From Escherichia phage saus132: a stretch of 64,000 nt of DNA. Below are positions 33,677 through 64,000 of the stretch, one piece after another (positions within the stretch are counted from its first letter, which is position 1; each line of letters begins with the position of its first letter). The DNA lies in the sequence record NC_047884.1. The stretch is one strand, 5' to 3'. The notes below the pieces were generated by a model. The model searched no databases and was not told the DNA's origin. It saw only the letters and a program-made list of their open reading frames with translations. The position numbers and the translations under genes are program-made.

Positions 33677-33697
33677 TTCGAAATCCTTCTATTAAAT

Positions 33698-33775: not shown

Positions 33776-33781
33776 ATTGTT

Positions 33782-33859: not shown

Positions 33860-34336
33860 AATATTATCTTTTTAACCATAGTAAGGTTATACCTAACATG
33901 GTAAATCCAGTACCCAGCCCAATACTTTTTTCTATGAAATTGAAGGTATCAGTATTGACTGCGGTAATTAGTATAGGTATAGACCATAGTACCATGAATA
34001 CTTGAGCTATCTTATATTTCACTTTGCTTTCCTTCTTAACATTTTATAAGATATATTATACAGAGAATTAAGCAAAGTAGCAAATGAATTTTTAATAAAT
34101 TTACTTATTGCGTAGGCCACCTGGAGGGTTCAAGCCCCACGGCTGACAAAGAAGTTTGCGAGACTTCTCTTAAACGCCAGAATAGACCCGCCGATCTATC
34201 GGAACCTACTCAATAAGTAAACTTTCATTTACTTACACCTACCTGGTCGGGAGGATTTTCAGCGACTAGAACCGGCCGGAAACTCATCGCCTTGTTTATC
34301 TAGGAGTCCGTTCTCTAGGAAGCAGAAACCTAAATT

Positions 34337-34410
34337 TGGTGCGGTCGGAGGGAATCGAACCCTCAACTTCTGGTTGGCAACCAAAAATTATACCTTTTAA
34401 CTACGAACGC
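34337..34410 (-). tRNA. tRNA-Gly (anticodon GCC)
   Basis: T-arm GAGGG-TTCGATT-CCCTC; anticodon arm TTTGG-TTGCCAA-CCAGA. Confidence 0.6.
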
Positions 34411-34608
34411 ATAATAAGTCAATCTAGGCAGGACTTGAACCTGCTATCACTTGTGCGGATTTACGAGAACCATTCTTTCACTCGAATCGAACGAGCTTCT
34501 ACCCTCGGCAAGCTGGTGTCCCCTCTCCACCACGCTAGAATGTTTGATAAAGAGTCCGGTGTAGCAATCCGTAAGGGTGCACCTACTGTAGCCTTTACTC
34601 TTTAAATT

Positions 34609-34684
34609 TGGTACACCCACTAGGACTTGAACCTAGAACCCTCCGCTTAAGAGGCGGTAGCTCTAACCATTGAGCTATGGATGT
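34609..34684 (-). tRNA. tRNA-Lys (anticodon CUU)
   Basis: T-arm CTAGG-TTCAAGT-CCTAG; anticodon loop CTCTTAA; D-stem GCTC/GAGC. Confidence 0.55.
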
Positions 34685-34690
34685 ATTATT

Positions 34691-34767
34691 TGGCGCGACC
34701 GATGGGATTCGAACCCACATTCTCTCCCGTGACAGGGGAGTACCATTACCAAGCCAGCCCCGATCGC
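34691..34767 (-). tRNA. tRNA-Asp (anticodon GUC)
   Basis: anticodon arm CTCCC-CTGTCAC-GGGAG; discriminator G; CCA encoded. Confidence 0.6.
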
Positions 34768-34776
34768 ATAATTTGT

Positions 34777-34962
34777 TTACTCAGCTTTGAGTTTTTCGAT
34801 AGCTTCCTCAACCTCTTTTAGAGCTTCACGACGTGCATTCTGTTGCTGCATATCTTGAATTAATGTCAGTTTTTGGTTTTCAATTTCTTGATCCCAAACC
34901 TTAATATTATTAATCAGACTATCACGATCAGCTTCTAGTCGAGCAATTGCACGAGTTGTCAT
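34777..34962 (-). CDS. hypothetical coiled-coil protein
   Basis: 61-aa ORF. Confidence 0.4.
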   Translation of the reverse strand: MTTRAIARLEADRDSLINNIKVWDQEIENQKLTLIQDMQQQNARREALKEVEEAIEKLKAE

Positions 34963-35065
34963 ATCTATTTCCTCAGTTGTTAATGAAAAATGGTATCTGT
35001 GACTGAATTCGATATCAGCAATGATAGCTGGTTGGCTACCGGTTTACTTAACTCTACACAGAATT

Positions 35066-35143
35066 TGGCGGTTCCTGCTGGATTCGAACCAGCAACCCTC
35101 AACTTAACAAGATGCCGCTCTAACCAATTAGAGCTAAGGAACC
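35066..35143 (-). tRNA. tRNA-Asn (anticodon GUU), weak anticodon stem
   Basis: perfect acceptor GGTTCCT/AGGAACC; T-arm GCTGG-TTCGAAT-CCAGC; loop TTGTTAA; two stem mismatches. Confidence 0.5.
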
Positions 35144-35638
35144 ATATAAGTCAGAACTAGAGTTAATACGTTCTAGATATTTACTAAGATCCCTAGAATT
35201 TATACTAAACCACTCATGTTCTTTTAAGTCTTTGAAATATTGGTGAATTTGTTTTTCACCTTTTCGTTTGTCAAACCAAAACGACCAATGCTCTAGTTTA
35301 TAGTCCCTATAAGGACTATAAGTTTGATACTGAGCTAATCTCTCTTTTGGATTTTGACTCATACCTATTTTATACTGGTTTTTCCATGCAGGATTACTGA
35401 TACAGTATACAAAACCTTCAGAAATAGGAAGCTTATTTTCCTGTTTAAACTTTATAAAGGAAAGTGCGGCAAGTTTCCTCGAATACAGAGTATTTGTATT
35501 CTTTTTGGTATTACCACTGGTTCCTGAAAGATTTATATACTCTTCCATAAATCTTTGGATTAGTTCTGTGGTTATGTAGAAAGGCTCATTAGTAACAATG
35601 CCTTTCTCTACCAAGCTGTCAAAAACTTTTGTATGCAC
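35120..35638 (-). CDS. T5orf172/GIY-YIG-like domain protein
   Basis: 172 aa; GFVYCISNP...YKIGMSQNPKERLAQY resembles the T5orf172 core. Confidence 0.5.
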   Translation of the reverse strand: MHTKVFDSLVEKGIVTNEPFYITTELIQRFMEEYINLSGTSGNTKKNTNTLYSRKLAALSFIKFKQENKLPISEGFVYCISNPAWKNQYKIGMSQNPKERLAQYQTYSPYRDYKLEHWSFWFDKRKGEKQIHQYFKDLKEHEWFSINSRDLSKYLERINSSSDLYGSLALIG

Positions 35639-35659
35639 TACTTCTTTCCTTTAGTAATT

Positions 35660-35734
35660 TGGAGCATCCTGTTGGAATTGAACCAACCTAGACGATTTTG
35701 CAGACCGTCACCTAAGCCACTCGGACAAGGATGC
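35660..35734 (-). tRNA. tRNA-Cys (anticodon GCA)
   Basis: perfect acceptor GCATCCT/AGGATGC; anticodon loop CTGCAAA; T-loop TTCAATT. Confidence 0.65.
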
Positions 35735-35737
35735 AAA

Positions 35738-36010
35738 TTAATCTACTTCACACATATCATCATAGCCACAAGTTGGGCATTCCCAATGACATTCGTCATG
35801 CTCACCGCATTGAGCACATTCATAAATCTTTGGCTTTTCAACTTCTTCTAGATTAATAAATTCTAGATCATCGAAGTTACCAATGGATCTGGCATAGTAA
35901 CCATCGCCTGCGTCATAACCTGATTTACCACACTCACACATCTTAAACTCACGCAGATGTGTGAAGATATGTTCAGAGCCACAACACTTAAATTTAACTA
36001 ACTTTTTCAT
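35738..36010 (-). CDS. zinc-ribbon protein
   Basis: 90 aa; several CxxC pairs. Confidence 0.5.
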   Translation of the reverse strand: MKKLVKFKCCGSEHIFTHLREFKMCECGKSGYDAGDGYYARSIGNFDDLEFINLEEVEKPKIYECAQCGEHDECHWECPTCGYDDMCEVD

Positions 36011-36059
36011 TTGCTTCTCCAGTTCAATTTATGTAATAATTATACAGAACTTTAAGCGG

Positions 36060-36347
36060 TTAAGCAACTACATTTTTCAGAAATATGATGCCTTTCTTTT
36101 TCTTCTTATACTTCCACGTTAACGGGTTCTGTCGATTATGAACGCTTGAGATCTTTGTCTCGTCAAAGTTCTTCAATACCATGTAATCACAGGCCAACTG
36201 TTCTAGTGGAATGTGATCTCCGTCAAAAGCGTAAACGTAAGGCTGTTGACTGGCACGATAATGATAGACTTTGTTAATTCTGCGTTTCAGTGACTTATCC
36301 GCACAGTAAATAAAGAAGTTTTCAGGATGCATCAGCATCTCCTTCAA
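36060..36347 (-). CDS. hypothetical protein
   Basis: 95-aa ORF; track start is TTG, a likelier ATG lies 9 nt in. Confidence 0.45.
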   Translation of the reverse strand: MKEMLMHPENFFIYCADKSLKRRINKVYHYRASQQPYVYAFDGDHIPLEQLACDYMVLKNFDETKISSVHNRQNPLTWKYKKKKKGIIFLKNVVA

Positions 36348-36349
36348 AT

Positions 36350-36424
36350 TGGTGCACCCTGTTCGAATTGAACGAACCTCTCAAGCTCTTCAGGCAAGCG
36401 CTAATCCATCTCAGCTAAAGGTGC
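36350..36424 (-). tRNA. tRNA-Phe (anticodon GAA), anticodon stem with two U-U mismatches
   Basis: T-arm GTTCG-TTCAATT-CGAAC; loop CTGAAGA; CCA encoded. Confidence 0.45.
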
Positions 36425-36430
36425 AAATAT

Positions 36431-36507
36431 TGGCAAACCTACTAGGACTCGAACCTAGACCGTACGGTTTTGGAGACCGACATGCTGTCCAGTAACACTC
36501 TAGGAAT
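36431..36507 (-). tRNA. tRNA-Trp (anticodon CCA)
   Basis: T-arm CTAGG-TTCGAGT-CCTAG; anticodon arm TCGGT-CTCCAAA-ACCGT; two U-U mismatches in acceptor. Confidence 0.5.
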
Positions 36508-36515
36508 GCAGAAAT

Positions 36516-36592
36516 TGGCGTCCTGTGCGGGGATCGAACCCGCAAATCCTACCTTGAAAGGGTAGTGACTTTACCAGTTTGTCTAACAGGAC
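36516..36592 (-). tRNA. tRNA-Glu (anticodon UUC)
   Basis: perfect acceptor; T-arm GCGGG-TTCGATC-CCCGC; anticodon arm CTACC-CTTTCAA-GGTAG. Confidence 0.65.
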
Positions 36593-36599
36593 TTAAATT

Positions 36600-36690
36600 T
36601 GGTGTTGGATGATGGAGTCGAACCACCCGAGACCCTTCCGAGTCGGCAGATTTACAGTCTACTTCGCTACCTCTACGATACTAATCCAAC
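36600..36690 (-). tRNA. tRNA-Tyr (anticodon GUA), long variable arm
   Basis: 91 nt; perfect acceptor GTTGGAT/ATCCAAC; anticodon loop CTGTAAA; about 18-nt variable arm. Confidence 0.6.
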
Positions 36691-36879
36691 ATATTTGAAT
36701 GAAAAGTAAGTCGGTTAAACTCAAGGTGGAATATTTCAGGATTTCCTGACTTTACCCCTAAAAGCAACTCGCTTAATTACTTCTCATTCAGATATGTTTC
36801 CAAATTAGATAAATATTATATCAAGTTTTAAGGCACTGAGCAAGTCAAATTTTAAAGAACTTGCTCAGTGCTGTATCAG

Positions 36880-37173
36880 TTAATCAAATGAAGGAGTGAC
36901 TTTCAAAGTGAATGGAAGTTCGAATACCTCTTCACCTTCATCAGTAACAGTGACTACTCGACCCTCTAGCTTATTCATGCTGATTTCAACATCAGCCGTA
37001 GCATCAGGAGCCATACCAGCCTCAATACATTGAGCTTTGATCTCTGGAAGAAGTTCTACATTGTAGAAATAAAGCCACTCGATCTCACCTTCCCAACCAC
37101 CCCAGGATTTACATACTGAGCTTTCAATACCAGTTGCTGCAAAACGTTTTAACATTCTGATTCCTCTCATCAA
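36880..37173 (-). CDS. hypothetical protein
   Basis: 97-aa ORF. Confidence 0.45.
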   Translation of the reverse strand: MMRGIRMLKRFAATGIESSVCKSWGGWEGEIEWLYFYNVELLPEIKAQCIEAGMAPDATADVEISMNKLEGRVVTVTDEGEEVFELPFTLKVTPSFD

Positions 37174-37244
37174 CTTATATAACTATTATAGCAGAAATCT
37201 TAAGCAAAAAGCAAGTACATTTTTAAAATTTCTGCTTGGAGGAG

Positions 37245-37517
37245 TTAAACTCCTGATTCTTCAGCCAGATCAAGCCCAACCAATGTGATTGCCATAATAG
37301 CCGCGCCATGTTCTTTCTCTCCTAGCTCTTTGGCTTGAGTGAGAATATTGAGGAATTGCTTTTGAAAATCTGCAACTTCTTCTGTCATGCCTGCTTCAGC
37401 AATAATTCCTTTCAGCATAAAGCGTTGTGCCGTAATTTCAGGATTAGCCATTTGTTTTCTCCAGTTATTTAGAATGTAAGCCAAACTTAGGATCATAGCG
37501 ATCGTAAGTAGTACCAT
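37245..37517 (-). CDS. hypothetical protein
   Basis: 90-aa ORF. Confidence 0.45.
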   Translation of the reverse strand: MVLLTIAMILSLAYILNNWRKQMANPEITAQRFMLKGIIAEAGMTEEVADFQKQFLNILTQAKELGEKEHGAAIMAITLVGLDLAEESGV

Positions 37518-37602
37518 TAGTTGAAGCCTTGATGCTATGAAAACGACAATACATAAATTTACGCAGTGCTTTCTTAATAGCTTTCATTTTATTTCCTTAA
37601 TT

Positions 37603-37679
37603 TGGTAGGGGTGGTGGGATTCGAACCCACAAAACCTGAATTTTAAGTCCAGTACCTATGCCAATTCGATTACACCCCC
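37603..37679 (-). tRNA. tRNA-Leu (anticodon UAA), short variable loop
   Basis: T-arm GTGGG-TTCGAAT-CCCAC; anticodon loop CTTAAAA; 77 nt. Confidence 0.45.
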
Positions 37680-37687
37680 ATGTAATC

Positions 37688-38041
37688 TTAGCGAATCTCT
37701 AAACCCTGGAAATATCGAGGGAATGGAGAGCCAACTTCAAAATTGATGCCCCAGTTAAGTTCAACGAGTTCAGATTTATTAAGATCTAGGCCATTACCTT
37801 CAAAGATATAGCCGTAAACCGCAGGGAACATAGCTGCTAGATCTTCCATATCGGAATGAGCATTGTGTTCTTCACGTAACTGCTCAAACTCTTCAAAGAA
37901 CTTTTCTAGGAAGAACTCAGGTACGATGAACGTTACCACATCAGTAGAATCATCAGTACGATACACCGTAGCTTGGAACAAGCCAACACCTAAAAGGTTT
38001 ATTGCCGGAGTAGTAAAAATATCCATCTTAACCTCGCTCAA
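37688..38041 (-). CDS. hypothetical protein
   Basis: 117-aa ORF. Confidence 0.5.
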   Translation of the reverse strand: MSEVKMDIFTTPAINLLGVGLFQATVYRTDDSTDVVTFIVPEFFLEKFFEEFEQLREEHNAHSDMEDLAAMFPAVYGYIFEGNGLDLNKSELVELNWGINFEVGSPFPRYFQGLEIR

Positions 38042-38213
38042 TGTCTAGAGAAATACCACATTCAGGATTAATACCAGAACCATTACAATATGTACAAACG
38101 TATGTATTATACCGTGTATCACCGGGTTCAGCATCGTTCCACTCACCTACTCCGAAGCATTTTGGGCAGGCACACTCTTCTAGCTCTTGCTTGAGTTCTT
38201 GAAATTTGGACAT
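38028..38213 (-). CDS. small zinc-finger protein
   Basis: 61 aa; CPKCFGVGEW and CTYCNGSG motifs. Confidence 0.4.
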   Translation of the reverse strand: MSKFQELKQELEECACPKCFGVGEWNDAEPGDTRYNTYVCTYCNGSGINPECGISLDIERG

Positions 38214-38221
38214 ATAGTCTC

Positions 38222-38410
38222 CTAGTTAATTACTTTTGAGGCTTCTAAAGCATTGACGTAGTAAACGTCTTCTACTTTATACATATAGTCTACTACTTTG
38301 TCCATAGCATGTAGTTCAGATGTAGCCTTTACTAGTCTGTACCCTTGTTTAAACTCGTCCGAATGTTCTCTATCTTGTGCAAATTTAACAGAAACTATGA
38401 ATAATTCCAT
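38222..38410 (-). CDS. hypothetical small protein
   Basis: 62-aa ORF. Confidence 0.4.
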   Translation of the reverse strand: MELFIVSVKFAQDREHSDEFKQGYRLVKATSELHAMDKVVDYMYKVEDVYYVNALEASKVIN

Positions 38411-38429
38411 TAGTTGTCCTTATTTAATT

Positions 38430-38507
38430 TGGTGGCTCCCGGAGGATTCGAACCTACCTACCTTTCGCTTATGAGGCGACGGCTCATACCAAATGAGCTT
38501 GAGAACC
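38430..38507 (-). tRNA. tRNA-Met-type (anticodon CAU), third CAU copy
   Basis: T-loop TTCGAAT; anticodon arm GTCGC-CTCATAA-GCGAA; CCA encoded. Confidence 0.5.
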
Positions 38508-38512
38508 AAATT

Positions 38513-38606
38513 TGGAGGAAGATGCCAGATTCGAACTGGCACACCGTGTCTCCACAGCTACTGGCTGTTTAGCAAACAGCTCCCTTACCTTTAGGGTTAA
38601 TCTTCC
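38513..38606 (-). tRNA. tRNA-Ser (anticodon GCU), long variable arm
   Basis: 94 nt; perfect acceptor GGAAGAT/ATCTTCC; anticodon arm GCTGT-TTGCTAA-ACAGC. Confidence 0.6.
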
Positions 38607-38626
38607 AAATTTATGAATATATTATA

Positions 38627-39028
38627 TTAGAAATTTAGCTTCATGGCAAGAAAATTTTTCAAGTTTTCTGTATTCATTTCATCTAAATCCATGAGGGAAG
38701 TAAACCCATTTAGTTTTTTAGCAAAATTCTCACCAGCAGAATCATTATCGCCTACGGCTACTACTTTAAAAGGTTGTAATTTTAGCTGCTTTAGCAATGC
38801 TTTGCTAGGGGAAGATCCTAGCATTGCTAGTGCGGGATATCCCGCGTTGTGTAGTGCCACAGCTTTAAATACAGATTCTGCAACTAATACTAGGTCTTCA
38901 TTACCTGTAAGAGTTTCTAAACCCCATAGACATTGAGTAGAAGAATGCGTAAAATATTTAGCTTCAGAAGGACATTTTCCATGACCTTTAGCTGCACTAG
39001 GGTTATATGTTTGATATCCACGTAACAT
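38627..39028 (-). CDS. Toprim-like small protein (possibly N-terminally disrupted)
   Basis: 133 aa; VVAVGDNDSAG acidic motif; short out-of-frame ATG ORF directly upstream. Confidence 0.35.
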   Translation of the reverse strand: MLRGYQTYNPSAAKGHGKCPSEAKYFTHSSTQCLWGLETLTGNEDLVLVAESVFKAVALHNAGYPALAMLGSSPSKALLKQLKLQPFKVVAVGDNDSAGENFAKKLNGFTSLMDLDEMNTENLKNFLAMKLNF

Positions 39029-39213
39029 GCCAGAGAAATCATACAGTGGAACTGTTAACCATCCATGTGGAGAGAGCCAACAGTGATACTTATCACTATC
39101 AAAGCCCCTAGATTAAAGATGTTGTTTTAACTCGTCAACAGTCATATATGACTCCTATCTATAATTTATAGAATATATTATATAGAAAATTTCGGCATTA
39201 AGCAAGTGAAATT

Positions 39214-39510
39214 TTACTGAACACTGCACTGATACACTTGTTTGATACGTGTCACTGACTTCTTAGTTGGATTGATAGAAGAACCTTGCCACCAACGTGA
39301 TTCTGAGCTGAGAACAGCACCAGGAACAGCTTGTTCTTTTGGCAGAACAATATCAAAACATTGCTCACCCATATTATCTTTAATGTGTGACCAAATATCC
39401 AAAGTAAATCGTTCTAGCTTATTACAAACTTGAACTTGACAAAGTTCCTGTTGTGGAGCAGCAAATACAGAAGTAGATACTAGAGTCAATGCAAGTACAA
39501 TGCGTTTCAT
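39214..39510 (-). CDS. secreted protein with signal peptide
   Basis: start set at ATG after GAGAGG RBS; MKRIVLALTLVSTSVFAAPQ signal sequence. Confidence 0.5.
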   Translation of the reverse strand: MKRIVLALTLVSTSVFAAPQQELCQVQVCNKLERFTLDIWSHIKDNMGEQCFDIVLPKEQAVPGAVLSSESRWWQGSSINPTKKSVTRIKQVYQCSVQ

Positions 39511-39540
39511 ATTTGATTCCTCTCTCAAATTTATAAATAT

Positions 39541-39569
39541 ATTATACAGAAATTTTCTATATTAAGCAA
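39541..39569 (-). promoter_or_regulatory. T5-type early promoter
   Basis: TATAAT 39541-39546, TTGCTT 39564-39569, 17-bp spacer, conserved leader. Confidence 0.6.
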
Positions 39570-39616
39570 GTGAAAATTTCTGTATAATAGCCCTCTAAGC
39601 GAGGGCTATAACTACT

Positions 39617-40309
39617 TTATTTGTTAACGCGTACAAAGTATCCTTTATAGGCTCCCATAATAGAGTTACCTAAGAATACTAGCCACATTGCTAGGATTGC
39701 ATAAGATGCACCTGTAGATTGAGCAGTTACAAGCCAAATGTATACAGTACCAATGTTAATAGCAATCCAGATCAGCCATTGTTCAGCATATTGTTTGACC
39801 ATAAGCCACATAGCAATCACACTACCAACCGCAGTAAATGCGTCAAGCATTGGGAATGGATCAGCGGTAGTAGCAAGGAAGCTGCCGTAACCTAAAGTAG
39901 CTACTGCTAGAATCCCTAGAGTCAGCAGAGCTTGGGCTTTAGTCAGAACCTTAGTTGGAACATCTGGCAGATTACTTGGCTTATTTTTATGCCATAAGTA
40001 CATTCCATAAAACTGCATAGGAACGTAGTATAGCAGGTTTAGTGCAGCGTTACCATAAAGATCTGCGTTTAAAGCTGTAATACCATATGTAAGAACACCC
40101 ACTAAGCCCCAAATATAGTTGGAAACACGTCCTTTTGCAACCAGAATAACACAAACCACATTGGTTATTGCAGTAGCCCAATCTAGAGCTGTACCATTAT
40201 AGTTTGCTAAACTAATGAAGACAACCGCTATGAACAGCCACAGATATTCCAGAGGTTTCCAGTTTTTAAAGTCATTTACGAGATAGTTAGTCATATTAAA
40301 ACTCTCCAA
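39617..40309 (-). CDS. pnuC: nicotinamide riboside transporter PnuC-like
   Basis: 230 aa polytopic membrane protein; SNYIWGLVGVLTYG and WHKN region resemble PnuC. Confidence 0.6.
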   Translation of the reverse strand: MESFNMTNYLVNDFKNWKPLEYLWLFIAVVFISLANYNGTALDWATAITNVVCVILVAKGRVSNYIWGLVGVLTYGITALNADLYGNAALNLLYYVPMQFYGMYLWHKNKPSNLPDVPTKVLTKAQALLTLGILAVATLGYGSFLATTADPFPMLDAFTAVGSVIAMWLMVKQYAEQWLIWIAINIGTVYIWLVTAQSTGASYAILAMWLVFLGNSIMGAYKGYFVRVNK

Positions 40310-41351
40310 CGTTAAAGTGATGAATCAGCCAGTCTACTGCGTTTACTGCTTCGTCCATACGAACTTTGTAGTCCGGGGAGTCGATGTAAACAGTACGCCC
40401 TTCAGGGAACTGATTTGGAAATTCTTTCTTCATCTGCTCGAACAGTTCAGAAGTAATTGAACGATCGGAGTTAATACGTAAACCATCATCTACCCACTTG
40501 ACAGTAGGCGCTAGAACAATTACTAAATCGTAATGTTCTTCTTTTGCAATTGCTGTAACCACAGGGTTCTTACTATGTTCATAAAGTCTGTGGTAGAACT
40601 CAGTAATAAAAGCATTTGTATCCACAAACATGATCTTATTTGCAGTACGTTCTGCTTCAAACTCTAGCTCTTTGTGTCTGAACGCAATTTTACTATAGTC
40701 TTCGCTGGTAAGCAGATTTTCGTTACCAACTAGATCAACTTCACAATACGTTCGGCCATATTCTTCTACCCACGAAGTGTTGTATAGCTTCGCAAGGTAT
40801 TTTGTTAAAGTAGTCTTTCCTGAGCTTTCAGTCCCAATGATTACAACCTTACGCACGTAATCTTTACGAACTACGCTAGGAAGAAACTCCCAATACTTCA
40901 TAAGATCATTACGAATCATTGTAGCTGAGATTGGAACACGAGTCCGATCAGAATCTACAATATAATGACCAAACTTCGGCAGATATTTCTTATATTCTGC
41001 ATCATAGTCTAGTTCGCTAGAGAAAATGGTGATCTCAGGCAAATGTCCGTAATTTTCATTAAGGATTCTAGCATATTCCGGCCAACCATTCGGATATTCA
41101 GGAATATCATCTTCAATAGTGTACTCTACCGAAATGTGCTCAATATCCGCGTAAGTTTGTTCTAACCAACGAAGTCGATTCTTTAACTGTAATACTTCCT
41201 GATCACGTGTGTTCTGCTTATCCAACCAACGATTATCATGACTAACTACAACAATAACTCGTTCACACATAGTTGCTGCTGTGTTTATTAGGTTAATATG
41301 ACCACGCGTTAATGGTGCGAACTTACCAATTACTAGACCAGTCTTAATCAT
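40296..41351 (-). CDS. nadR: NadR-like bifunctional NMN adenylyltransferase / ribosylnicotinamide kinase
   Basis: nucleotidyltransferase motif GKFAPLTRGH; Walker A GTESSGKTTL in C-terminal half; start set at ATG after GAGAGG RBS. Confidence 0.65.
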   Translation of the reverse strand: MIKTGLVIGKFAPLTRGHINLINTAATMCERVIVVVSHDNRWLDKQNTRDQEVLQLKNRLRWLEQTYADIEHISVEYTIEDDIPEYPNGWPEYARILNENYGHLPEITIFSSELDYDAEYKKYLPKFGHYIVDSDRTRVPISATMIRNDLMKYWEFLPSVVRKDYVRKVVIIGTESSGKTTLTKYLAKLYNTSWVEEYGRTYCEVDLVGNENLLTSEDYSKIAFRHKELEFEAERTANKIMFVDTNAFITEFYHRLYEHSKNPVVTAIAKEEHYDLVIVLAPTVKWVDDGLRINSDRSITSELFEQMKKEFPNQFPEGRTVYIDSPDYKVRMDEAVNAVDWLIHHFNVGEF

Positions 41352-41381
41352 ATTTGATTCCTCTCTCAAATTTATAAATAT

Positions 41382-41410
41382 ATTATACAGAGAATTTAGC
41401 ATTCAAGCAA
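41382..41410 (-). promoter_or_regulatory. T5-type early promoter
   Basis: TATAAT 41382-41387, TTGCTT 41405-41410, 17-bp spacer. Confidence 0.6.
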
Positions 41411-41623
41411 TCGAATTTTTTAACTTTTTAGTGGAAAAAATCTCAAGGCATTTAGTGGTAGCACGTTGTTGCTACAATAATAGTATATGATTCTAAAGAA
41501 TTAAAGAATTAAATACTAAAGACCTTAGTTGAATAACTTATGGGCTTTTCTTTTGCCTTAAATACAGAAAAGCCCGCGCTCTCGGAGGAAACGCGGGCTT
41601 ATTTCGAAGATTACGTGTAACTA

Positions 41624-42568
41624 TTACTTATTACGCATATCCATAATCATCTGGCCATCATAACCAGTACCTACAACAGTCTGAGGAACGCCACCCTGAT
41701 ATTTTTCAGCGCGTTTCATATCAACTTCCAGCTGTTTCCAGCGAATCATCTCTGGAGTGATGGTACGCTGCAGAGCGGTGTTAGCTTCAGCTTCTTTCTT
41801 AGCCGCATACAGTTTAGCATCTGCGTCACGTTCGTTAGCTACTGCCATATTTTCACGAGCAGAACGATCAGCCTCAGCTTGCTTAACTTTCTGCTGTGCT
41901 TCTTGTTCAACACGAGCTAGTTCAGCTTTTGCAGCGTTAACTTGTTCTTCACGAACTTTGGTGTTTTGTACCTGTTCCATGATTACCGGTGGCAGAGTAA
42001 TATCCTGAAGGAATACTTGCTTAACGGTGTAGCCATAAGGACGCGCATACTCTTCTACTTCTTGCTGAATAGCGGTTTGCAGTTGAGCCTGAATCTTAGC
42101 GTCGAACAGATCTTGTGCTTTTGGTACAGACTTACCAAACTCACGAATCGTAGACAGCATCTTCTCTTCAACGTACTTGTTCAGAGCTTGATCCTGAGTA
42201 CCTGCGTTAACACGGTTCATAGGAGCTTTAGCACCATCAAACTGCAACATAACGGTAATGTCAACTGTAGACTTAAACTTATCCTGGCTAGGAACCTGAA
42301 GTTTATCCAGTTTCATAGAAATATCTTTCGTACTAAAAGTATCAAAAGAGGCGAATGGGTTGACAATATGGAACCCCGGCAATACAGGATTAGGACTAAC
42401 TTTACCCAGGAAAGTCTGAGTTTTAACCGTACCGTCCTGAACAACTGTATAGGAATTGAGAGCCAGAATAAGAGCGCCAAGACCAACTACAGCACCAACA
42501 CCCCAACGTTTAATAGTACGAATTACTTTTTGATCGGAAGTCAGTTCTTTAGTGTTTTTAGTAAACAT
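41624..42568 (-). CDS. SPFH/band-7 (prohibitin/HflC-like) membrane protein
   Basis: 314 aa; N-terminal TM; FLQDITLPPVIMEQV motif and long coiled coil. Confidence 0.55.
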   Translation of the reverse strand: MFTKNTKELTSDQKVIRTIKRWGVGAVVGLGALILALNSYTVVQDGTVKTQTFLGKVSPNPVLPGFHIVNPFASFDTFSTKDISMKLDKLQVPSQDKFKSTVDITVMLQFDGAKAPMNRVNAGTQDQALNKYVEEKMLSTIREFGKSVPKAQDLFDAKIQAQLQTAIQQEVEEYARPYGYTVKQVFLQDITLPPVIMEQVQNTKVREEQVNAAKAELARVEQEAQQKVKQAEADRSARENMAVANERDADAKLYAAKKEAEANTALQRTITPEMIRWKQLEVDMKRAEKYQGGVPQTVVGTGYDGQMIMDMRNK

Positions 42569-42579
42569 ATATTTCCTTA

Positions 42580-42780
42580 TTATTTAGAAGAGTTAGCTAC
42601 TACAGTTACTTTAGTTGCAGAAATAAACAGGCTAGCATCCACAGCAAATTCAGGAGCTTTGATATCTCCGTTATGAAATATGACTATACCGGAGACTACT
42701 TCAAATGCTAGCGCTGTAACATCGGTGGTATTTACTTGTGAATGTTCACCTACTACTTTTACTATATATCGTGTTTTCAC
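42580..42780 (-). CDS. hypothetical small protein
   Basis: 66 aa, GTG start with AGGAAA RBS, downstream of SPFH gene. Confidence 0.4.
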   Translation of the reverse strand: MKTRYIVKVVGEHSQVNTTDVTALAFEVVSGIVIFHNGDIKAPEFAVDASLFISATKVTVVANSSK

Positions 42781-42806
42781 TTTATTTTCCTAGCAGTTAA
42801 TAAAAT

Positions 42807-42881
42807 TGGCCGAGGTGACAGGATTCGAACCTGCATAAAGGAATTTAGAAGACTCCTGCCTATCCCTTAGACTACACCCCG
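42807..42881 (-). tRNA. tRNA-Arg (anticodon UCU)
   Basis: T-arm GCAGG-TTCGAAT-CCTGT; anticodon arm GGAGT-CTTCTAA-ATTCC; CCA encoded. Confidence 0.6.
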
Positions 42882-59518: not shown

Positions 59519-60205
59519 ATGGTACGAAGGAAGTTAGATAAAGACACTATCAATAAAGATTTAGAGCCTAGAAGAATTAAGCTAATAAGTGAGTATTCTG
59601 GAATCCTTAATAAAGGCACATTCATATGTAGTGTAGGTCATACATGGGAAGCTACTGTTAATAATGTAAGGAATAGCAAATCTGGCTGTCCAATATGCGC
59701 AGGTACTTTTAAACTTACTAAAGATTCGGTAAATGAAGGGTTACGTAGTAGGGGTATTACTCTTATTGGAGAGTATAAAAATAATGCTACTAAAACTCTT
59801 TTTGAATGTGAGCATGGGCATAGGTGGGAAGCCACAGTAGGCAATGTAAAGAATAAAAATTCTGGGTGTCCTGTGTGCGATACTGATTGGAATACCCCTG
59901 GTTTTATATACATTATGTGTAGTAGTATGGGAACTAAAATAGGAATTAGTATCTCTCCTGAAAGACGGTGGAAAGAGATAGTTAAAAGCTCCAATATACT
60001 AGATTTATATATTTTTGGTGTCTATTCAATAGATTCTGGTACCAAATCTAAAAGTAGGTCTATCGAGAAACAGACTCATGAATATTTTTCAGAATATAGA
60101 TTAAAGTATACAGGATTTGCTGGATGTACTGAATTCTTTGATATATCTCCCATAGCCGTAGAAAAGCACTTAATTAATAATGGGTGTATAAAGGTAGAAA
60201 AATAA
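59519..60205 (+). CDS. T5orf172-domain protein with two zinc-ribbon repeats
   Basis: two repeats GH(T/R)WEATV.NV.N..SGCP.C, then GFIYIMCSSMGTKIGISISPERRWKEI core. Confidence 0.55.
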   Translation: MVRRKLDKDTINKDLEPRRIKLISEYSGILNKGTFICSVGHTWEATVNNVRNSKSGCPICAGTFKLTKDSVNEGLRSRGITLIGEYKNNATKTLFECEHGHRWEATVGNVKNKNSGCPVCDTDWNTPGFIYIMCSSMGTKIGISISPERRWKEIVKSSNILDLYIFGVYSIDSGTKSKSRSIEKQTHEYFSEYRLKYTGFAGCTEFFDISPIAVEKHLINNGCIKVEK

Positions 60206-60830: not shown

Positions 60831-61044
60831 AAATGTTAGTCTTATTGATCTGAATAAGCTCAATCAAGAGTTTCAGGGAGTTTTAATGAAGCACTGGGAA
60901 ACTGGTTATAAGGATGGTGTTGAATCCTGTGCTACTATGCTAGAAGTTCTTGCTGATAACCTAGTGGAGAAAGGCAATAAAGAATTAGCTGAGCTGTTAG
61001 ACAGTATTGGGCAAAACTTTAGAGAACAGGTGAAAAATGCGTAG
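60799..61044 (+). CDS. hypothetical protein
   Basis: 81-aa ORF; start uncertain. Confidence 0.4.
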   Translation: MAFSSQKLPGENVSLIDLNKLNQEFQGVLMKHWETGYKDGVESCATMLEVLADNLVEKGNKELAELLDSIGQNFREQVKNA

Positions 61045-61888
61045 ACTAATCGTTGTTAGTGGTGCAGGTTTGAGTGTAGATAGTGGTGTTCGTGCTTTCC
61101 GTACTGATACTGCTAGTGGGAAATCCTTGTGGGATGAGTACGATCTAGAGGAAGTATGTAGCTTGCCTAACTTTGAAGCTGGCTTCCGTCGCTTCTGTGG
61201 TGAAGATGATCCTAACTACTTCAGTGCTCGTTTCCCTGGCATTGATGAAGATGGTAACGATCTGTATCTCAAGACTCATGAGTTCTACAACATGCGTCGT
61301 CAGGAATTACAGACTGTTGAGCCTAACATTGCCCATCTGCGAATTGCAGAATGGTTCCAGCGTTATGGTGCGGATAGCGTGAAGAACTTCACTACTAACG
61401 TTGATGACCTTCTGGAGCGCGCTGGTATCCCTCGTGATGAAATCATCCATGCTCACGGATACTTGAAAGAGGTGATCTATCGTCGGGGTCGCAATCAAAT
61501 CATCGAAGATGTTGGATACACTGCAATTGTTCCTGAAGATTACGAATGGGTAAAACCAAACGTGGTGTTCTTTGGTGAAACAGCTCCGTGGTACATGGGT
61601 CAGATCAACCTGTTTGATACGCTTACTAGCAATGATATGGTTATTGTGGTGGGTTGTAGCAACCAAGTTATCAACTTCAACTGGGAATTATTCCCTGCTG
61701 TATGTCGTGGAACTAAGATGATGGTTGTTAACCCTCAAGTTCGTTATGATGAACAGCTTGAGTATGAGAAACGTGGTGTTACTGTATGGCGGGCTGGAGC
61801 TGCCGAAGTTTTTGGTAACAAGAATTTCATTGGTCAAGTAGAAGCCTTTATGGAAGGAACTATTTATGCACCGCAAGAGCATGTGTGA
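61037..61888 (+). CDS. Sir2-family NAD-dependent protein (deacylase/ADP-ribosyltransferase-like)
   Basis: GAGLSVDSGVRAFR NAD-binding motif, TTNVDDL, HAHG catalytic His, FFGE and VVGCS motifs; no CxxC zinc module. Confidence 0.65.
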   Translation: MRRLIVVSGAGLSVDSGVRAFRTDTASGKSLWDEYDLEEVCSLPNFEAGFRRFCGEDDPNYFSARFPGIDEDGNDLYLKTHEFYNMRRQELQTVEPNIAHLRIAEWFQRYGADSVKNFTTNVDDLLERAGIPRDEIIHAHGYLKEVIYRRGRNQIIEDVGYTAIVPEDYEWVKPNVVFFGETAPWYMGQINLFDTLTSNDMVIVVGCSNQVINFNWELFPAVCRGTKMMVVNPQVRYDEQLEYEKRGVTVWRAGAAEVFGNKNFIGQVEAFMEGTIYAPQEHV

Positions 61889-62048
61889 TCTTTTAGTATG
61901 GCCGGACGGTAGTTGGTGCTACCGTTTCGAATTTGCTACCGATGACTTCTCATGGAAGAGTGATGATTTCTGCGTTATCTATGAGGATACAGCAGAATGG
62001 AAAGAGTTCCTTATTAAGGAGGGAGAATATGGTGAAGAAGATTTTTAA
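61866..62048 (+). CDS. hypothetical small protein
   Basis: 60-aa ORF. Confidence 0.35.
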   Translation: MHRKSMCDLLVWPDGSWCYRFEFATDDFSWKSDDFCVIYEDTAEWKEFLIKEGEYGEEDF

Positions 62049-62214
62049 GGGTATCTGGAAGGGTCTAGTATGGTTTGTCAACCTAATTGGTATGATTACC
62101 ATTTATTCTCTGTTCCTATCTGTTATGTGGGGTAAAGGTGAGCTGAAGGTTCCGGTTCCTTTTACTGATGAAGTTAAAGTCTGGACGTGGGATGCTACTG
62201 GTGGAAATAAGTAA
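62029..62214 (+). CDS. small membrane protein
   Basis: start at ATG after AGGAGGGAG RBS; hydrophobic core. Confidence 0.4.
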   Translation: MVKKIFKGIWKGLVWFVNLIGMITIYSLFLSVMWGKGELKVPVPFTDEVKVWTWDATGGNK

Positions 62215-62707
62215 TACTCCTGTGATTTTCCTGGATATTGATGGGGTACTCAATTCGAGCATCTCTCACCATCATGCTCTAGACAGTGAAAAGCTGTTCT
62301 TTGGCAGTGATTGGGTTTATAAGCCATTACTCCAGGTTTTTCAGAACTTTCTTAAACCCTCCCCAATAATGATTGTTGGGGTCTCTTCATGGTTTTCTGT
62401 ACGAAATGAAATGGAGAACGTTCAGATTATGACCGGACTCGGTTTGATCGATCGTTTCCTTGGTACAACAGATTTTACTGGAGGTGGTTTATATCGGGGT
62501 AATTCTGTTTTACGTTTCGTCGAAAAACATAAGCTCAAGCATTGGTGTGTCTTAGACGATGCTGGTGCTATGATGTATCAATTTCCTACTGTTATTGTAA
62601 ATGGCAGGACTGGAGTAAACCTTCAAGATTTAAATGCTATAAGCTATATGCTGGAATTTAGTCCAGATCTTGAAATGTGTAAGGCTCTTCAGAAACTTAA
62701 GGTATAA
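62192..62707 (+). CDS. HAD-like hydrolase (putative phosphatase)
   Basis: FLDIDGVLN HAD motif I near N-terminus; start set to in-frame ATG. Confidence 0.5.
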   Translation: MLLVEISNTPVIFLDIDGVLNSSISHHHALDSEKLFFGSDWVYKPLLQVFQNFLKPSPIMIVGVSSWFSVRNEMENVQIMTGLGLIDRFLGTTDFTGGGLYRGNSVLRFVEKHKLKHWCVLDDAGAMMYQFPTVIVNGRTGVNLQDLNAISYMLEFSPDLEMCKALQKLKV

Positions 62708-62709
62708 GC

Positions 62710-63138
62710 ATGTTCAATAATATTTTCATGAAAGAGGTAAATCCTATGCTCCTCAACTTCTGGCGTTCTCTCCCTAATGGTATGTATAATGAAACCATCA
62801 ATCTGCTTAAGATTTGGTGTGAGAATAATGATATCTTCTTATCCTTTAAAGGCCCACTAGAGGAAGCTCCATGTATTGGAGTTAGTGTGGATTTAGGTGA
62901 GGGAGTAGAAGAGATTGTAGACTGGAAAGAACTCGATGAAATGGGTCTGGTTTTTGCCTTAAATCATAAGCTGTTTATGCCTGCAAATCACCGTCTTATT
63001 GTAAATTATCGCACTGGTGAAGCTCCTGCTTTCCAGGTAAATGAACGTGAGGGCTGGTCATATTCGCCCGAGGAAGTAAATGAGGGGATTCAGAAACTTC
63101 GTCGTTTCGGGTATATGATCCCAGGTTTAACTGCTTAA
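62710..63138 (+). CDS. hypothetical protein, paralog A
   Basis: 142 aa; AAGGAGG-type RBS; similar in sequence to the next ORF. Confidence 0.5.
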   Translation: MFNNIFMKEVNPMLLNFWRSLPNGMYNETINLLKIWCENNDIFLSFKGPLEEAPCIGVSVDLGEGVEEIVDWKELDEMGLVFALNHKLFMPANHRLIVNYRTGEAPAFQVNEREGWSYSPEEVNEGIQKLRRFGYMIPGLTA

Positions 63139-63147
63139 GGAGGCAGA

Positions 63148-63543
63148 ATGGAACAAGTATTTTGGCGTCAGATAGATCCTAGTTTGGTAGAGCGTGCTGA
63201 GGGGCTCCTTGCACGTTGGTTGGGGGTTGACAAGGTTAGTGTAACATTTCCGTTTACTTCTGTAACAGACCCTAGTGTAGGTGTCTTTGTGGACGAAGAT
63301 GAAGATGATGGTTGGGAAGCTGACTGGAATGAATTGTCCAGTATGGGCTTGATTGTTGCCCTCAACTTCTCTATATTCCATCCACGTGGCTTAGCCATTA
63401 CACGTGACCCCGAAACTGGTGAATCCCCTTATCTTTTGCAAGTAGAAGATGATATTTGGGAGTACACCGAAGATATTCTCGAAGAAGCTAAAGGTCAATT
63501 AAATCGCATTGGGATCTATGTTCCAGGCCTAAATGATGATTGA
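63148..63543 (+). CDS. hypothetical protein, paralog B
   Basis: 131 aa; shares WxELxxMGL(V/I)xALN and C-terminal IxVPGLxxx pattern with 62710 ORF. Confidence 0.5.
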   Translation: MEQVFWRQIDPSLVERAEGLLARWLGVDKVSVTFPFTSVTDPSVGVFVDEDEDDGWEADWNELSSMGLIVALNFSIFHPRGLAITRDPETGESPYLLQVEDDIWEYTEDILEEAKGQLNRIGIYVPGLNDD

Positions 63544-63567
63544 TTTTCATTAGTCCAATCCTGATTA

Positions 63568-63596
63568 CCGAGTCATTTTGGCTCGGTTTTCTCTGT
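63568..63596 (+). terminator. putative intrinsic terminator
   Basis: ACCGAGTCATTTTGGCTCGGT hairpin followed by TTTTCTCTG. Confidence 0.5.
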
Positions 63597-63662: not shown

Positions 63663-64000
63663 TATTTATATTGAATTGAGAGACATTAGTAAAAATTGAT
63701 TTTGCTAATTTTTCTTGTTTACAATCCGCAATACGGAACAGTTAGGCTGCCCCATTAAGGGTTGTTTTAACTATTACTAGTGTTTATACTGCATTAGTTA
63801 ATTATCAATTAAGTGATCTGCGTACCCTGAATTCGGAAAGGTAAATCCAAACCGTGCATATTTAGCTCGTTATATAGGCAGAGCTTTATATGGGGGTGCG
63901 AACGAAAAGAGCAGCGAATGGTGACACGTCCAGTAGCCACCTACCAATAGGATAGTGAGGGCAATCAGAATCGGCTTAGCGGCCAATGACCTAGGTTCTG

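What the first reader, a model, noticed from the sequence alone, without database searches (positions are those of the whole stretch)
62710..63543. Tandem paralogous genes of unknown function
The two adjacent ORFs share a central W-x-EL-x-x-MGL-(V/I)-x-ALN segment and a C-terminal I-x-VPGL tail but differ elsewhere. Recent tandem duplication followed by divergence is typical of evolving host-interaction proteins.
Basis: seen in the sequence. Interest (0 to 1): 0.4.

Follow-up and report, generated by a model that had tools for sequence, protein, structure and literature searches.

The report
Old tandem DUF7415 gene pair
Two neighbouring small genes of a T5-like phage are real but ancient duplicates from a catalogued family of unknown function (DUF7415); both are strongly conserved, and the counterpart of the second one measurably helps phage T5 grow, so they are unexplained but not new.

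Summary
ORFs 62710-63138 (142 aa) and 63148-63543 (131 aa) are homologous: 31% identity over 124 aa, E=1e-20, z=27.7 against shuffles.

The window is phage T5-like chee130_1 (MF431736.1). The ORFs are orthologues of T5.106 and T5.107, and both belong to Pfam DUF7415 and phrog_2502.

"Recent duplication" is wrong. Both copies have separate orthologues, in the same order, in T5, Klebsiella T5-like phages, phage Eos and metagenomic T5-like contigs. "Evolving host-interaction proteins" has no support from selection: dN/dS is 0.08-0.16 and no 20-codon window exceeds 0.54.

The downstream copy keeps the family-wide motif (HPxGLA...RDPxTGxS...DGxWEY). The upstream copy has lost most of it.

A published CRISPRi-ART screen lists T5.107 among only 17 fitness genes of T5, with function unknown. 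Single-repeat relatives sit after replication gene A in P2-like prophages and directly after nrdD in two T4-like genera.

Function remains inferred: small acidic early binding proteins linked to replication or dNTP supply, possibly a heterodimer. Interest is modest.

The parts
62710..63138 (+). ORF1, 142 aa, upstream-type DUF7415 protein (orthologue of T5.106), pI 4.7
   Evidence: ORF list and GenBank CDS P1301_0109. Pfam DUF7415 125.5 bits against a cut-off of 27, two stretches. phrog_2502 E=7e-60. AF2 pLDDT 88.4, pTM 0.82. pI. 73% identical to T5.106.
62752..62904 (+). ORF1 N-terminal DUF7415 repeat (aa 15-65): strand, helix, beta-hairpin
   Evidence: The N half alone scores 73.1 bits on PF24187. 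Model elements E14-16, H25-36, E42-46, E55-63.
62914..63045 (+). ORF1 C-terminal DUF7415 repeat (aa 69-112). It keeps W-x-EL..MGL..ALN but has lost the family motif HPxGLA/RDPxTGxS (it reads FMPANHRLIVNYRTGEAP)
   Evidence: The C half alone scores 56.4 bits. It scores lower than the ORF2 C repeat on a profile made mostly of single-repeat proteins: 60.9 against 86.9 bits. Alignment.
63067..63135 (+). ORF1 C-terminal helix (aa 120-132) and tail RFGYMIPGLTA
   Evidence: H120-132 in the model. The tail motif G-h-x-h-(P/E)-G-L/W recurs in the two-repeat Demerecviridae proteins examined.
63137..63143 (+). Shine-Dalgarno AAGGAGG for ORF2. It overlaps the TAA stop of ORF1 and lies 4 nt before the ATG
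   Evidence: Read directly from the sequence.
63148..63543 (+). ORF2, 131 aa, downstream-type (canonical) DUF7415 protein (orthologue of T5.107), pI 4.05, net charge -20
   Evidence: ORF list and CDS P1301_0110. Pfam DUF7415 98.2 bits, two stretches. phrog_2502 E=2e-58. AF2 pLDDT 90.3, pTM 0.85. pI. T5.107 is called 'Fit' in CRISPRi-ART.
63154..63300 (+). ORF2 N-terminal DUF7415 repeat (aa 3-51). Its hairpin and the following acidic loop are the least constrained part of the protein
   Evidence: The N half alone scores 44.6 bits. Highest pN/pS of 0.54 at columns 21-40, with indels at columns 54-58.
63322..63444 (+). ORF2 C-terminal DUF7415 repeat (aa 59-99) with the family-wide motif DWNELS..GLI..LN...FHPRGLA..RDPETGESP
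   Evidence: Best Pfam stretch 59-99. The C half alone scores 57.8 bits. It aligns to single-repeat proteins of T4-like and P2-like phages at 40-48% identity. Consensus.
63469..63540 (+). ORF2 C-terminal helix (aa 108-121) and tail IGIYVPGLNDD
   Evidence: H108-121 in the model; pLDDT falls to 65 over the last residue (residue 131, the final block).
63567..63587 (+). Intrinsic terminator-like hairpin (9-bp stem followed by TTTCTCTGTG) that ends the operon 24 nt after ORF2
   Evidence: Consensus scan. A rho-independent terminator is annotated at the same place after T5.107 in T5.
61037..62707 (+). Upstream genes of the same early operon: Sir2-like (61037-61888), a phrog_5116 small protein (61866-62048), a phrog_11166 small protein (62032-62214) and a HAD_SAK_2 phosphatase-like protein (62192-62707)
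   Evidence: Pfam and PHROG scans. The order Sir2, phrog_5116, upstream-type, downstream-type is conserved in the Klebsiella phage and in metagenomic contigs L046 and L047. In L043 the pair follows Sir2 directly.

Best explanation
SHOWN. The two ORFs are an ancient, conserved tandem pair of small acidic cytoplasmic proteins. They are the last two genes of an early operon of a T5-like phage. That operon begins after the nrdD terminator and ends at a terminator just upstream of the replication origin-binding protein gene.

Each protein consists of two diverged DUF7415 repeats (beta-alpha-beta-beta), then a C-terminal helix and a short PGL tail. The locus therefore carries four copies of one roughly 50-aa module. 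The fold has no significant relative among solved structures. Both genes are under purifying selection.

The downstream copy (ORF2, T5.107-type) keeps the polar motif shared by the whole family, from Pseudomonas prophages to T4-like phages. The upstream copy (ORF1, T5.106-type) keeps the hydrophobic core but has lost most of that motif.

INFERRED (about 0.3-0.35). DUF7415 is a non-enzymatic binding module that normally works as a homodimer. The two-repeat T5 proteins are covalent pseudo-dimers. ORF2 carries the ancestral binding site for a conserved ligand or protein of the replication / DNA-precursor machinery. ORF1 is a specialised partner, probably forming a heterodimer with ORF2, that has given up that site. 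Together they help early phage DNA synthesis, which would explain the fitness cost of knocking down T5.107.
For: Paralogy.

Identity of the window and orthology to T5.106/T5.107.

Two repeats per protein:
- Each half alone passes the Pfam cut-off (73.1, 56.4, 44.6 and 57.8 bits against 27).
- An independent HHalign of the N halves against the single-repeat family scores 20.7 (P=5e-4). The column-shuffled null is 8.3 +/- 2.0, maximum 15.5, 0 of 150 reaching the observed value.
- Secondary structure repeats in both AF2 models.

Old duplication. Purifying selection. Acidic throughout, pI 4.0-4.8.

Canonical versus degenerate copy.

Translational coupling: start and stop codons overlap in the Klebsiella phage and metagenomic lineages, and a strong SD lies on the ORF1 stop codon here.

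Fitness: T5.107 is one of 17 'Fit' genes of T5 (p=0.0215) while T5.106 is not (p=0.167), from the PMC11879866 supplements.

Replication or precursor context:
- Immediately upstream of the origin-binding protein gene and in the nrdD operon in all T5-like phages seen.
- Directly after nrdD and before nrdG in Jiaodavirus and Bragavirus.
- Directly after replication gene A in P2-like phages and prophages: GPA in 7 of the 146 neighbour ORFs from 14 bacterial loci scanned.
- Rare fusions to dATP/dGTP pyrophosphohydrolase, thymidylate kinase and ASCH.
Against: No direct evidence shows any binding partner, any dimer or any activity. A complex prediction could not be run.

The Pfam model may have been built partly from these N halves. 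A profile made mostly of single-repeat proteins does not detect the N halves on its own.

The T5.107 fitness call is marginal (p=0.02). The same screen misses presumably important genes such as T5.108, so a polar or chance effect is possible.

Context evidence is weak. Early regions of virulent phages are full of nucleotide-metabolism genes anyway, and nrd regions of T4-like phages are known insertion hotspots (my own knowledge; PMC2988022 surfaced but was not read).

Only about 8 of 137 cluster representatives carry any recognisable fusion partner. Some of those are unrelated to nucleotides: Cox, PGDYG, DUF551 and a ClpX zinc finger.
Confidence: 0.35

Rival explanations
1. Host-takeover or anti-defence inhibitors. 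The pair are small acidic early proteins that bind and block a host protein, for example a DNA-binding defence or repair factor, acting as a decoy or DNA mimic. The two diverged copies would cover two targets.
For: - They are small, early and strongly acidic (net charge -8 and -20).
- The fold is orphan.
- In P2-like prophages the gene sits next to the tin/old accessory region.
- C5 and D12 DNA methylases are frequent neighbours in prophages.
- One GenBank record labels a family member 'anti-CBASS acb1'.
- T5.107 shows a fitness effect on E. coli K-12.
Against: - There is no sign of diversifying selection.
- The polar motif is conserved across phages of Pseudomonas, Shewanella, Vibrio, enterobacteria and a Bacteroidales MAG. 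That argues for a very conserved target rather than variable defence systems.
- The acb1 label has no support: only DUF7415 is found in that 85-aa protein.
- PADLOC gave no hit, though that library holds defence proteins, not anti-defence proteins.
Confidence: 0.25
2. Accessory subunits or regulators of the phage Sir2-like enzyme. The conserved cassette Sir2 / phrog_5116 / upstream-type / downstream-type would work as one unit, with the DUF7415 pair targeting or restraining an NAD-consuming Sir2.
For: Sir2 is followed by the DUF7415 pair in every T5-like lineage examined, usually with a phrog_5116 small protein between them and often with overlapping start and stop codons. These lineages are this window, T5, the Klebsiella phage, Eos, DU_PP_V (one copy) and contigs L043, L046 and L047.
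Against: - Close Sir2 homologues (46-61% identity) occur in about 140-150 kb Escherichia phages (rV5-type names), and more distant ones (31-36%) in Vibrio and jumbo phages. The DUF7415 searches returned far fewer Escherichia records (143-145 against 373). Absence of DUF7415 from those phages was not checked directly.
- DUF7415 is common in T4-like and P2-like phages with no Sir2 nearby.
- Markadamsvirinae have inserted two unrelated genes (phrog_11166 and HAD) inside the cassette.
- T5.102 (Sir2) was 'Not Fit' while T5.107 was 'Fit'.
Confidence: 0.12
3. Two independent, partly redundant paralogues that do not interact. The upstream copy would simply be a drifting duplicate retained by chance.
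For: T5.106 knock-down had no significant effect. The upstream type has lost the family motif. DU_PP_V manages with a single copy.
Against: The upstream copy is the more constrained of the two (dN/dS 0.08-0.09). It has kept length, core residues and tail across very divergent lineages. In every lineage examined it is found only together with a downstream-type gene.
Confidence: 0.1
4. Virion or enzymatic roles as written in some database records: 'tail tube protein', 'exonuclease (ACLAME 70)', 'anti-CBASS Acb1'.
For: Only the labels themselves in GenBank and UniProt records.
Against: - The genes lie in the early operon between Sir2 and the origin-binding protein gene, not in the structural module.
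- Pfam, NCBIfam and PHROGs give no tail, nuclease or 2H-phosphoesterase match.
- No structural similarity to any such protein reaches significance.
Confidence: 0.01

Closest known systems
T5.106 and T5.107 of Escherichia phage T5 (AY543070; AAS77152 and AAS77153)
   Same: Direct orthologues: tblastn identity is 73% for T5.106 and about 69% over ORF2 residues 1-130 for the IMG/VR copy of the T5 genome (L028). Same order, same 9-nt spacing and same reading frame. Same operon from the post-nrdD promoter to a terminator before the origin-binding protein gene. Both are phrog_2502.
   Different: Nothing essential differs. The window phage belongs to Epseptimavirus rather than Tequintavirus, and it carries an extra GIY-YIG-type gene after nrdD. 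The only functional datum is a marginal 'Fit' call for T5.107 in CRISPRi-ART.
Single-repeat DUF7415 proteins (about 60-110 aa) of T4-like phages and P2-like prophages, e.g. the 77-aa gene between nrdD and nrdG of Klebsiella phages KP1/Roth66, and the ASCH-DUF7415 'Orf91-position' protein of P2_2H4
   Same: Same Pfam family and same motif IDWNELSxxGLIxRINxEILHPLGLAxxRDPxTGxSxGxLVxxDGxWEY as the C-terminal repeat of ORF2 (40-48% identity). They are also acidic and also encoded in early, replication or precursor regions.
   Different: They have one repeat only, lack the C-terminal helix and PGL tail, and do not occur as a tandem pair. Some are fused to ASCH, dATP/dGTP pyrophosphohydrolase or thymidylate kinase. 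The two-repeat form and the upstream/downstream pair were found only in T5-like (Demerecviridae-type) contexts, in the roughly 20 cluster representatives seen.
AcrIC4 (PDB 8dfo_M) and ferredoxin-like alpha+beta domains (NUP54, PCDH15 MAD12, eL22)

Membership tests
Pfam DUF7415 (PF24187) | Whole-protein HMM score above the gathering cut-off of 27 bits | tested here: met
   ORF1 scores 125.5 bits and ORF2 98.2 bits.
Pfam DUF7415 (PF24187) | Each half of the protein is a separate copy of the 53-position domain | tested here: met
   The halves scanned alone score 73.1, 56.4, 44.6 and 57.8 bits. HHalign of the N halves against the single-repeat family gives P=5e-4 and beats 150 of 150 column shuffles. 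Caveat: a profile made mostly of single-repeat proteins does not find the N halves.
Pfam DUF7415 (PF24187) | Family-wide polar motif HPxGLA ... RDPxTGxS ... DGxWEY in the repeat | tested here: met
   The ORF2 C repeat reads FHPRGLAITRDPETGESP...DDIWEY. The ORF1 C repeat reads FMPANHRLIVNYRTGEAP...EGWSY, so the motif is largely lost there. Neither N repeat has it.
PHROG phrog_2502 (unknown function) | Full-length profile match | tested here: met
   E=7.2e-60 (residues 11-142) for ORF1 and E=2.3e-58 (residues 1-130) for ORF2. The same PHROG is assigned to T5.106 and T5.107 in the PMC11879866 supplement.
Phage tail tube protein (label in several GenBank/UniProt records) | Homology to a tail tube family and location in the structural (late) module | tested here: not met
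Exonuclease (ACLAME 70 label) | A recognisable nuclease domain or catalytic motif | tested here: not met
   Only DUF7415 is detected. There is no nuclease among significant fold matches.
Acb1 anti-CBASS 2H-phosphodiesterase (label on the 85-aa relative in Klebsiella phage Roth22) | 2H phosphoesterase domain, about 150 aa, with two HxT/S motifs | tested here: not met
   The Roth22 protein is 85 aa and matches only DUF7415. The window ORFs match only DUF7415. Activity was not testable.
Anti-CRISPR AcrIC4-like | Significant structural or sequence similarity to AcrIC4 | tested here: not met
Heteromeric ORF1-ORF2 complex (proposed here) | Predicted or measured physical interaction between the two paralogues | not testable with these tools
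   Structure prediction accepts single chains only. No natural fusion of the two types was seen among the best 150 of 159 cluster representatives.

The most novel reading that the evidence does not exclude
DUF7415 is an orphan-fold binding module that phages of many Gammaproteobacteria use to engage one highly conserved component of host or phage DNA replication or dNTP supply. In T5-like phages it has been elaborated into a hetero-pseudo-tetramer. That complex would pair a canonical ORF2/T5.107 with a degenerate partner ORF1/T5.106 and be needed for efficient phage DNA synthesis. This would be a previously unrecognised class of early replication-coupling or takeover factor.
Probability: 0.15. 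Interest if true: 0.6.

Novelty: already known. Interest (0 to 1): 0.3.

Why it matters
T5 is a classic model phage, yet most of its early genes have no known function. T5.107, the orthologue of ORF2, is one of only six entirely uncharacterised genes that scored as important for T5 growth in a genome-wide knock-down screen.

This work shows four things about the pair:
- Its neighbour is an ancient partner-like paralogue.
- Both proteins are internal duplications of one small module with no known structural relative.
- The module recurs next to replication initiators and the anaerobic ribonucleotide reductase gene in unrelated phage groups.
- It is under strong purifying selection rather than arms-race selection.

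That gives a concrete, testable starting point for assigning a function.

It also flags three misleading database labels ('tail tube protein', 'exonuclease', 'anti-CBASS acb1') that are spreading through phage annotations. The finding itself is a correct but ordinary observation about a catalogued family of unknown function.

Tried and rejected
- **Complex prediction.** The heterodimer idea therefore stays untested.
- **AFDB50 fold search.** The library was not available.
- **Word-indexed homologue searches.** Both single-protein queries and the 67-sequence domain alignment returned only close T5-like proteins. The exhaustive search was needed to see the family.
- **Other libraries.** PADLOC, NCBIfam and PDB sequence searches gave nothing.
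- **Literature.** There are no papers for 'DUF7415' or the T5.10x gene names in main text. The HIDEN-SEQ preprint covers no T5-like phage. The phiR2-01 proteogenomics paper does not mention the orthologues. The PNAS 2026 anthracycline paper concerns only pre-early genes.
- **Giant VCBS/cadherin-repeat proteins** in the exhaustive search were discarded as spurious matches of 'DGxWxY' repeats to the C-terminal part of the profile.
- **Obligate Sir2 partnership.** Down-weighted, because Sir2 homologues are reported from many more Escherichia, Vibrio and jumbo phage records than DUF7415 is, and DUF7415 occurs without Sir2 (and the context calls).
- **NrdG-linked role in T5-like phages.** Not supported. 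No NrdG homologue lies in positions 1-70000 of this phage.
- **Specific nucleotide-metabolism role.** Weakened by the prophage neighbour census, which shows P2-type replication and structural genes and no nucleotide enzymes, and by the rarity and mixed nature of fusion partners.
- **Alternative start of ORF1 at Met13.** Considered because residues 1-10 have pLDDT below 50. Rejected because the N-terminal 12 residues are conserved with pN/pS 0.15.

Full report
**Provenance and check of the observation**

The window is identical to positions 1-64000 of Bacteriophage T5-like chee130_1 (MF431736.1, Demerecviridae, Epseptimavirus). The two ORFs are annotated there as hypothetical proteins P1301_0109 (62710-63138, 142 aa) and P1301_0110 (63148-63543, 131 aa).

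BLASTP between them gives 31% identity over 124 ungapped residues, E=1e-20. The Smith-Waterman score is 169, against 29 +/- 5 for 2000 shuffles (z=27.7). The similarity covers almost the whole length and is not compositional.

The tail is better written hydrophobic-x-(V/I)-PGL.

**Anatomy**

Both proteins match Pfam DUF7415 (125.5 and 98.2 bits, cut-off 27), each with two matched stretches. Both match phrog_2502 over their full length.

Scanned separately, each N half and each C half passes the Pfam cut-off on its own: 73.1, 56.4, 44.6 and 57.8 bits. The Pfam model might have been trained on these very N halves, so I made an independent test. An HHalign comparison of 31 N halves with an alignment consisting mostly of single-repeat family members scores 20.7 (P=5e-4) over 53 in-register columns. 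The null from 150 column shuffles is 8.3 +/- 2.0, maximum 15.5. A plain HMM of that mostly single-repeat alignment does not pick up the N halves. The internal duplication is therefore old and supported, but not overwhelming.

AlphaFold2 models are confident for both: ORF2 pLDDT 90.3 and pTM 0.85, ORF1 pLDDT 88.4 and pTM 0.82. They show the same order of elements, strand-helix-hairpin twice, then a C-terminal helix and a short tail.

Both proteins are acidic (pI 4.7 and 4.05; net charge -8 and -20), as is the whole family.

ORF2 starts 9 nt after the ORF1 stop and is in the same frame. An AAGGAGG Shine-Dalgarno sequence overlaps that stop codon. A terminator-like hairpin follows ORF2 at 63567-63587, where T5 has an annotated terminator.

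**Age of the duplication and selection**

The pair is present in essentially every T5-like record. Of 524 records with a match, 521 cover at least 80% of the query, and nearly every listed record has two places.

In T5 the genes are T5.106 and T5.107. The same upstream/downstream arrangement is found at about 30% identity in several other lineages:
- Klebsiella T5-like phages;
- phage Eos;
- three metagenomic T5-like contigs.

Pectobacterium phage DU_PP_V has only one two-repeat gene.

A neighbour-joining tree of 31 two-repeat proteins splits into two clades. The upstream-type clade holds ORF1, T5.106, Klebsiella gp50 and Eos115. The downstream-type clade holds ORF2, T5.107, Klebsiella gp49, Eos114 and DU_PP_V gp086. 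This is a distance tree without bootstrap. The duplication therefore predates the divergence of these lineages and is not recent.

I ran Nei-Gojobori analysis on 29 distinct T5-like sequences taken from 28 IMG/VR loci plus the window.

| Gene | Median dN/dS | Summed-ratio dN/dS |
|---|---|---|
| ORF1 | 0.079 | 0.092 |
| ORF2 | 0.126 | 0.161 |
| Sir2 | 0.104 | 0.165 |
| HAD | 0.070 | 0.071 |

No 20-codon window exceeds 0.54. The least constrained stretch is the hairpin and acidic loop of the ORF2 N repeat, which also carries indels. There is no signature of an arms race.

**The two copies are not equivalent**

An exhaustive profile search of 1.84 billion cluster representatives finds only 159 proteins at E<=0.001. 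About twenty are two-repeat proteins. A dozen giant VCBS-type proteins are spurious. The rest are single-repeat proteins of roughly 60-110 aa.

Their consensus is IDWNELSxxGLIxRINxEILHPLGLAxxRDPxTGxSxGxLVxxDGxWEY.

The C repeat of ORF2 and of all downstream-type proteins keeps this motif. The C repeat of the upstream type keeps the hydrophobic core (W, G-L, A-L-N, W-x-Y) but has lost most of the polar positions. It also scores lower on the family profile: 24-64 bits against 65-92 bits.

In every lineage examined, the upstream type occurs only together with a downstream-type gene.

**Genomic context across the family**

In T5-like phages the conserved order is nrdD, small ORF, Sir2, a small phrog_5116 protein in most lineages (absent in L043 and unassigned in DU_PP_V), upstream-type, downstream-type, terminator, origin-binding protein. 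Start and stop codons often overlap. Markadamsvirinae have inserted a phrog_11166 gene and a HAD_SAK_2 gene into it.

Elsewhere the single-repeat gene lies in these positions:
- between nrdD and nrdG: directly between them in Klebsiella Jiaodavirus, and directly after nrdD with one further ORF before nrdG in Proteus Bragavirus;
- after rnlA, near td, frd and denA, in Aeromonas phage Ah1;
- two genes after a Nudix gene in Slopekvirus/Pseudotevenvirus;
- directly after replication gene A in P2-like phages.

A census of 146 neighbour ORFs around 14 bacterial-genome loci shows these are P2-type prophages. It found GPA in 7 ORFs, plus terminase, portal, Ogr/Delta and DNA methylases.

Recognisable fusion partners are rare, about 8 of 137 representatives: dATP/dGTP pyrophosphohydrolase (2), ASCH/DUF3850 (2), thymidylate kinase, Cox, PGDYG, DUF551 and a weak ClpX zinc finger.

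Sir2 homologues turn up in many more Escherichia records, and in Vibrio and jumbo phages, than DUF7415 does. That link therefore looks like T5-lineage synteny rather than a family rule.

No NrdG homologue was found in positions 1-70000 of this phage.

**Functional evidence and proposed mechanism**

The only experimental datum I found is the CRISPRi-ART transcriptome-wide screen of T5 (PMC11879866). Its supplement lists T5.107 among 17 'Fit' genes and among the few 'of entirely unknown function' (fitness -2.90, p=0.0215). T5.106 is 'Not Fit' (p=0.167). The call is marginal, and the screen also misses T5.108, so it is suggestive only.

My best reading has a shown part and an inferred part.

Shown: an ancient, constrained, early-expressed pair built from four copies of an orphan-fold module.

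Inferred (about one chance in three): DUF7415 is a non-enzymatic binding module that works as a dimer, and the two-repeat proteins are covalent pseudo-dimers. ORF2 keeps the ancestral binding site for a conserved ligand or protein of the replication / DNA-precursor machinery. ORF1 is a specialised partner that has given up that site.

The main rival, at about one in four, is an acidic inhibitor of a host factor such as a defence or repair protein. The strong purifying selection, and a motif conserved across phages of very different hosts, argue for a conserved target either way.

A dedicated role with phage Sir2, mere redundancy, and the database labels are less likely. The labels 'tail tube protein', 'exonuclease' and 'anti-CBASS acb1' fail every test I could apply.

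**Novelty and verdict**

The genes are known, annotated orthologues of T5.106 and T5.107. They belong to catalogued families (Pfam DUF7415, phrog_2502), so the finding is not new as an object.

This second look adds the following:
- the internal repeat structure;
- the age and asymmetry of the duplication;
- the absence of any known fold relative;
- purifying selection on both copies;
- recurrent placement beside replication initiators and nrdD;
- the link to a published fitness phenotype.

Interest is modest (0.3). It would rise if the pair proved to be a new kind of replication-coupling or takeover factor.

Noticed in passing
window 59519-60205 (+): A 228-aa ORF just after the nrdD terminator carries treble-clef zinc finger (DUF4379), CapR, MUG113/T5orf172 and weak GIY-YIG matches, so it looks like a homing-endonuclease-type gene. 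T5 has no gene of this kind at the equivalent position (T5.100 follows nrdD directly), so it appears to be a lineage-specific insertion.
   Followed up: partly
window 62192-62707 (+) (ORF list gives 62168-62707): The gene just upstream of the pair is a HAD_SAK_2 phosphatase-like protein (Pfam E=3e-17; phrog_1818). It also hits phrog_18062, which PHROGs labels 'Sir2', and some records accordingly annotate two 'Sir2' genes (e.g. NC_048809). This looks like a propagated mislabel. The HAD gene is absent from the cassette in Klebsiella, Eos and metagenomic T5-like phages.
   Followed up: partly
window 61866-62048 (+); also L034:3302-3466, L046:4828-5001, L047:1238-1405: A 55-60-aa protein (phrog_5116, sequence ...LVWPDGSWCYRFE...) overlaps the 3' end of Sir2. 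It is conserved between Sir2 and the DUF7415 pair in divergent T5-like lineages, so it may belong to the same functional cassette.
   Followed up: partly
L038/L039:3986-4219 (Klebsiella phages KP1/Roth66) and L041:3456-3722 (Proteus phage PM2): A single-repeat DUF7415 gene lies between the anaerobic ribonucleotide reductase gene nrdD and its activase nrdG in two T4-like genera. In KP1/Roth66 it overlaps both genes. In PM2 one further ORF separates it from nrdG. In the KP1 record it is not annotated at all.
   Followed up: yes
window 1-64000 plus L001 (MF431736.1 positions 55000-70000): The phage encodes NrdD, but tblastn with two T4-like NrdG proteins finds no activase homologue in positions 1-70000 (best E about 1). 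It may rely on the host NrdG. The late region, 70-122 kb, was not searched.
   Followed up: partly
GenBank/UniProt records of relatives (e.g. DU_PP_V HOS40_gp086, phage JLBYU43, T5_ev219, Klebsiella phage Roth22 XNO93915.1): DUF7415 proteins carry the conflicting labels 'tail tube protein', 'exonuclease (ACLAME 70)' and 'anti-CBASS protein acb1'. None is supported by domain, context or fold evidence.
   Followed up: yes
window 63544-64159: A 616-bp non-coding gap separates ORF2 from the origin-binding / 'primase C' gene. It contains the terminator (63567-63587) and a sigma-70-like site (63696-63725, TTGATT-18-TACAAT). T5 has an annotated terminator and promoter in the equivalent gap. Whether it also holds replication signals was not examined.
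   Followed up: no
window 29041-42881 (-): There is a large tRNA gene cluster, 28 tRNA genes on the minus strand. It includes duplicated tRNA-Ala(UGC), three tRNA-Met(CAU) calls and two tRNA-Gln, as is typical of T5-like phages.
   Followed up: no
L037:3817-4146 (phage P2 Orf91) versus L004:2725-3180 (P2_2H4): P2 Orf91, directly after replication gene A, is an ASCH/DUF3850 protein. In the close relative P2_2H4 the same position encodes ASCH fused to a C-terminal DUF7415 repeat. In another cluster representative the order of the two domains is reversed.
   Followed up: partly
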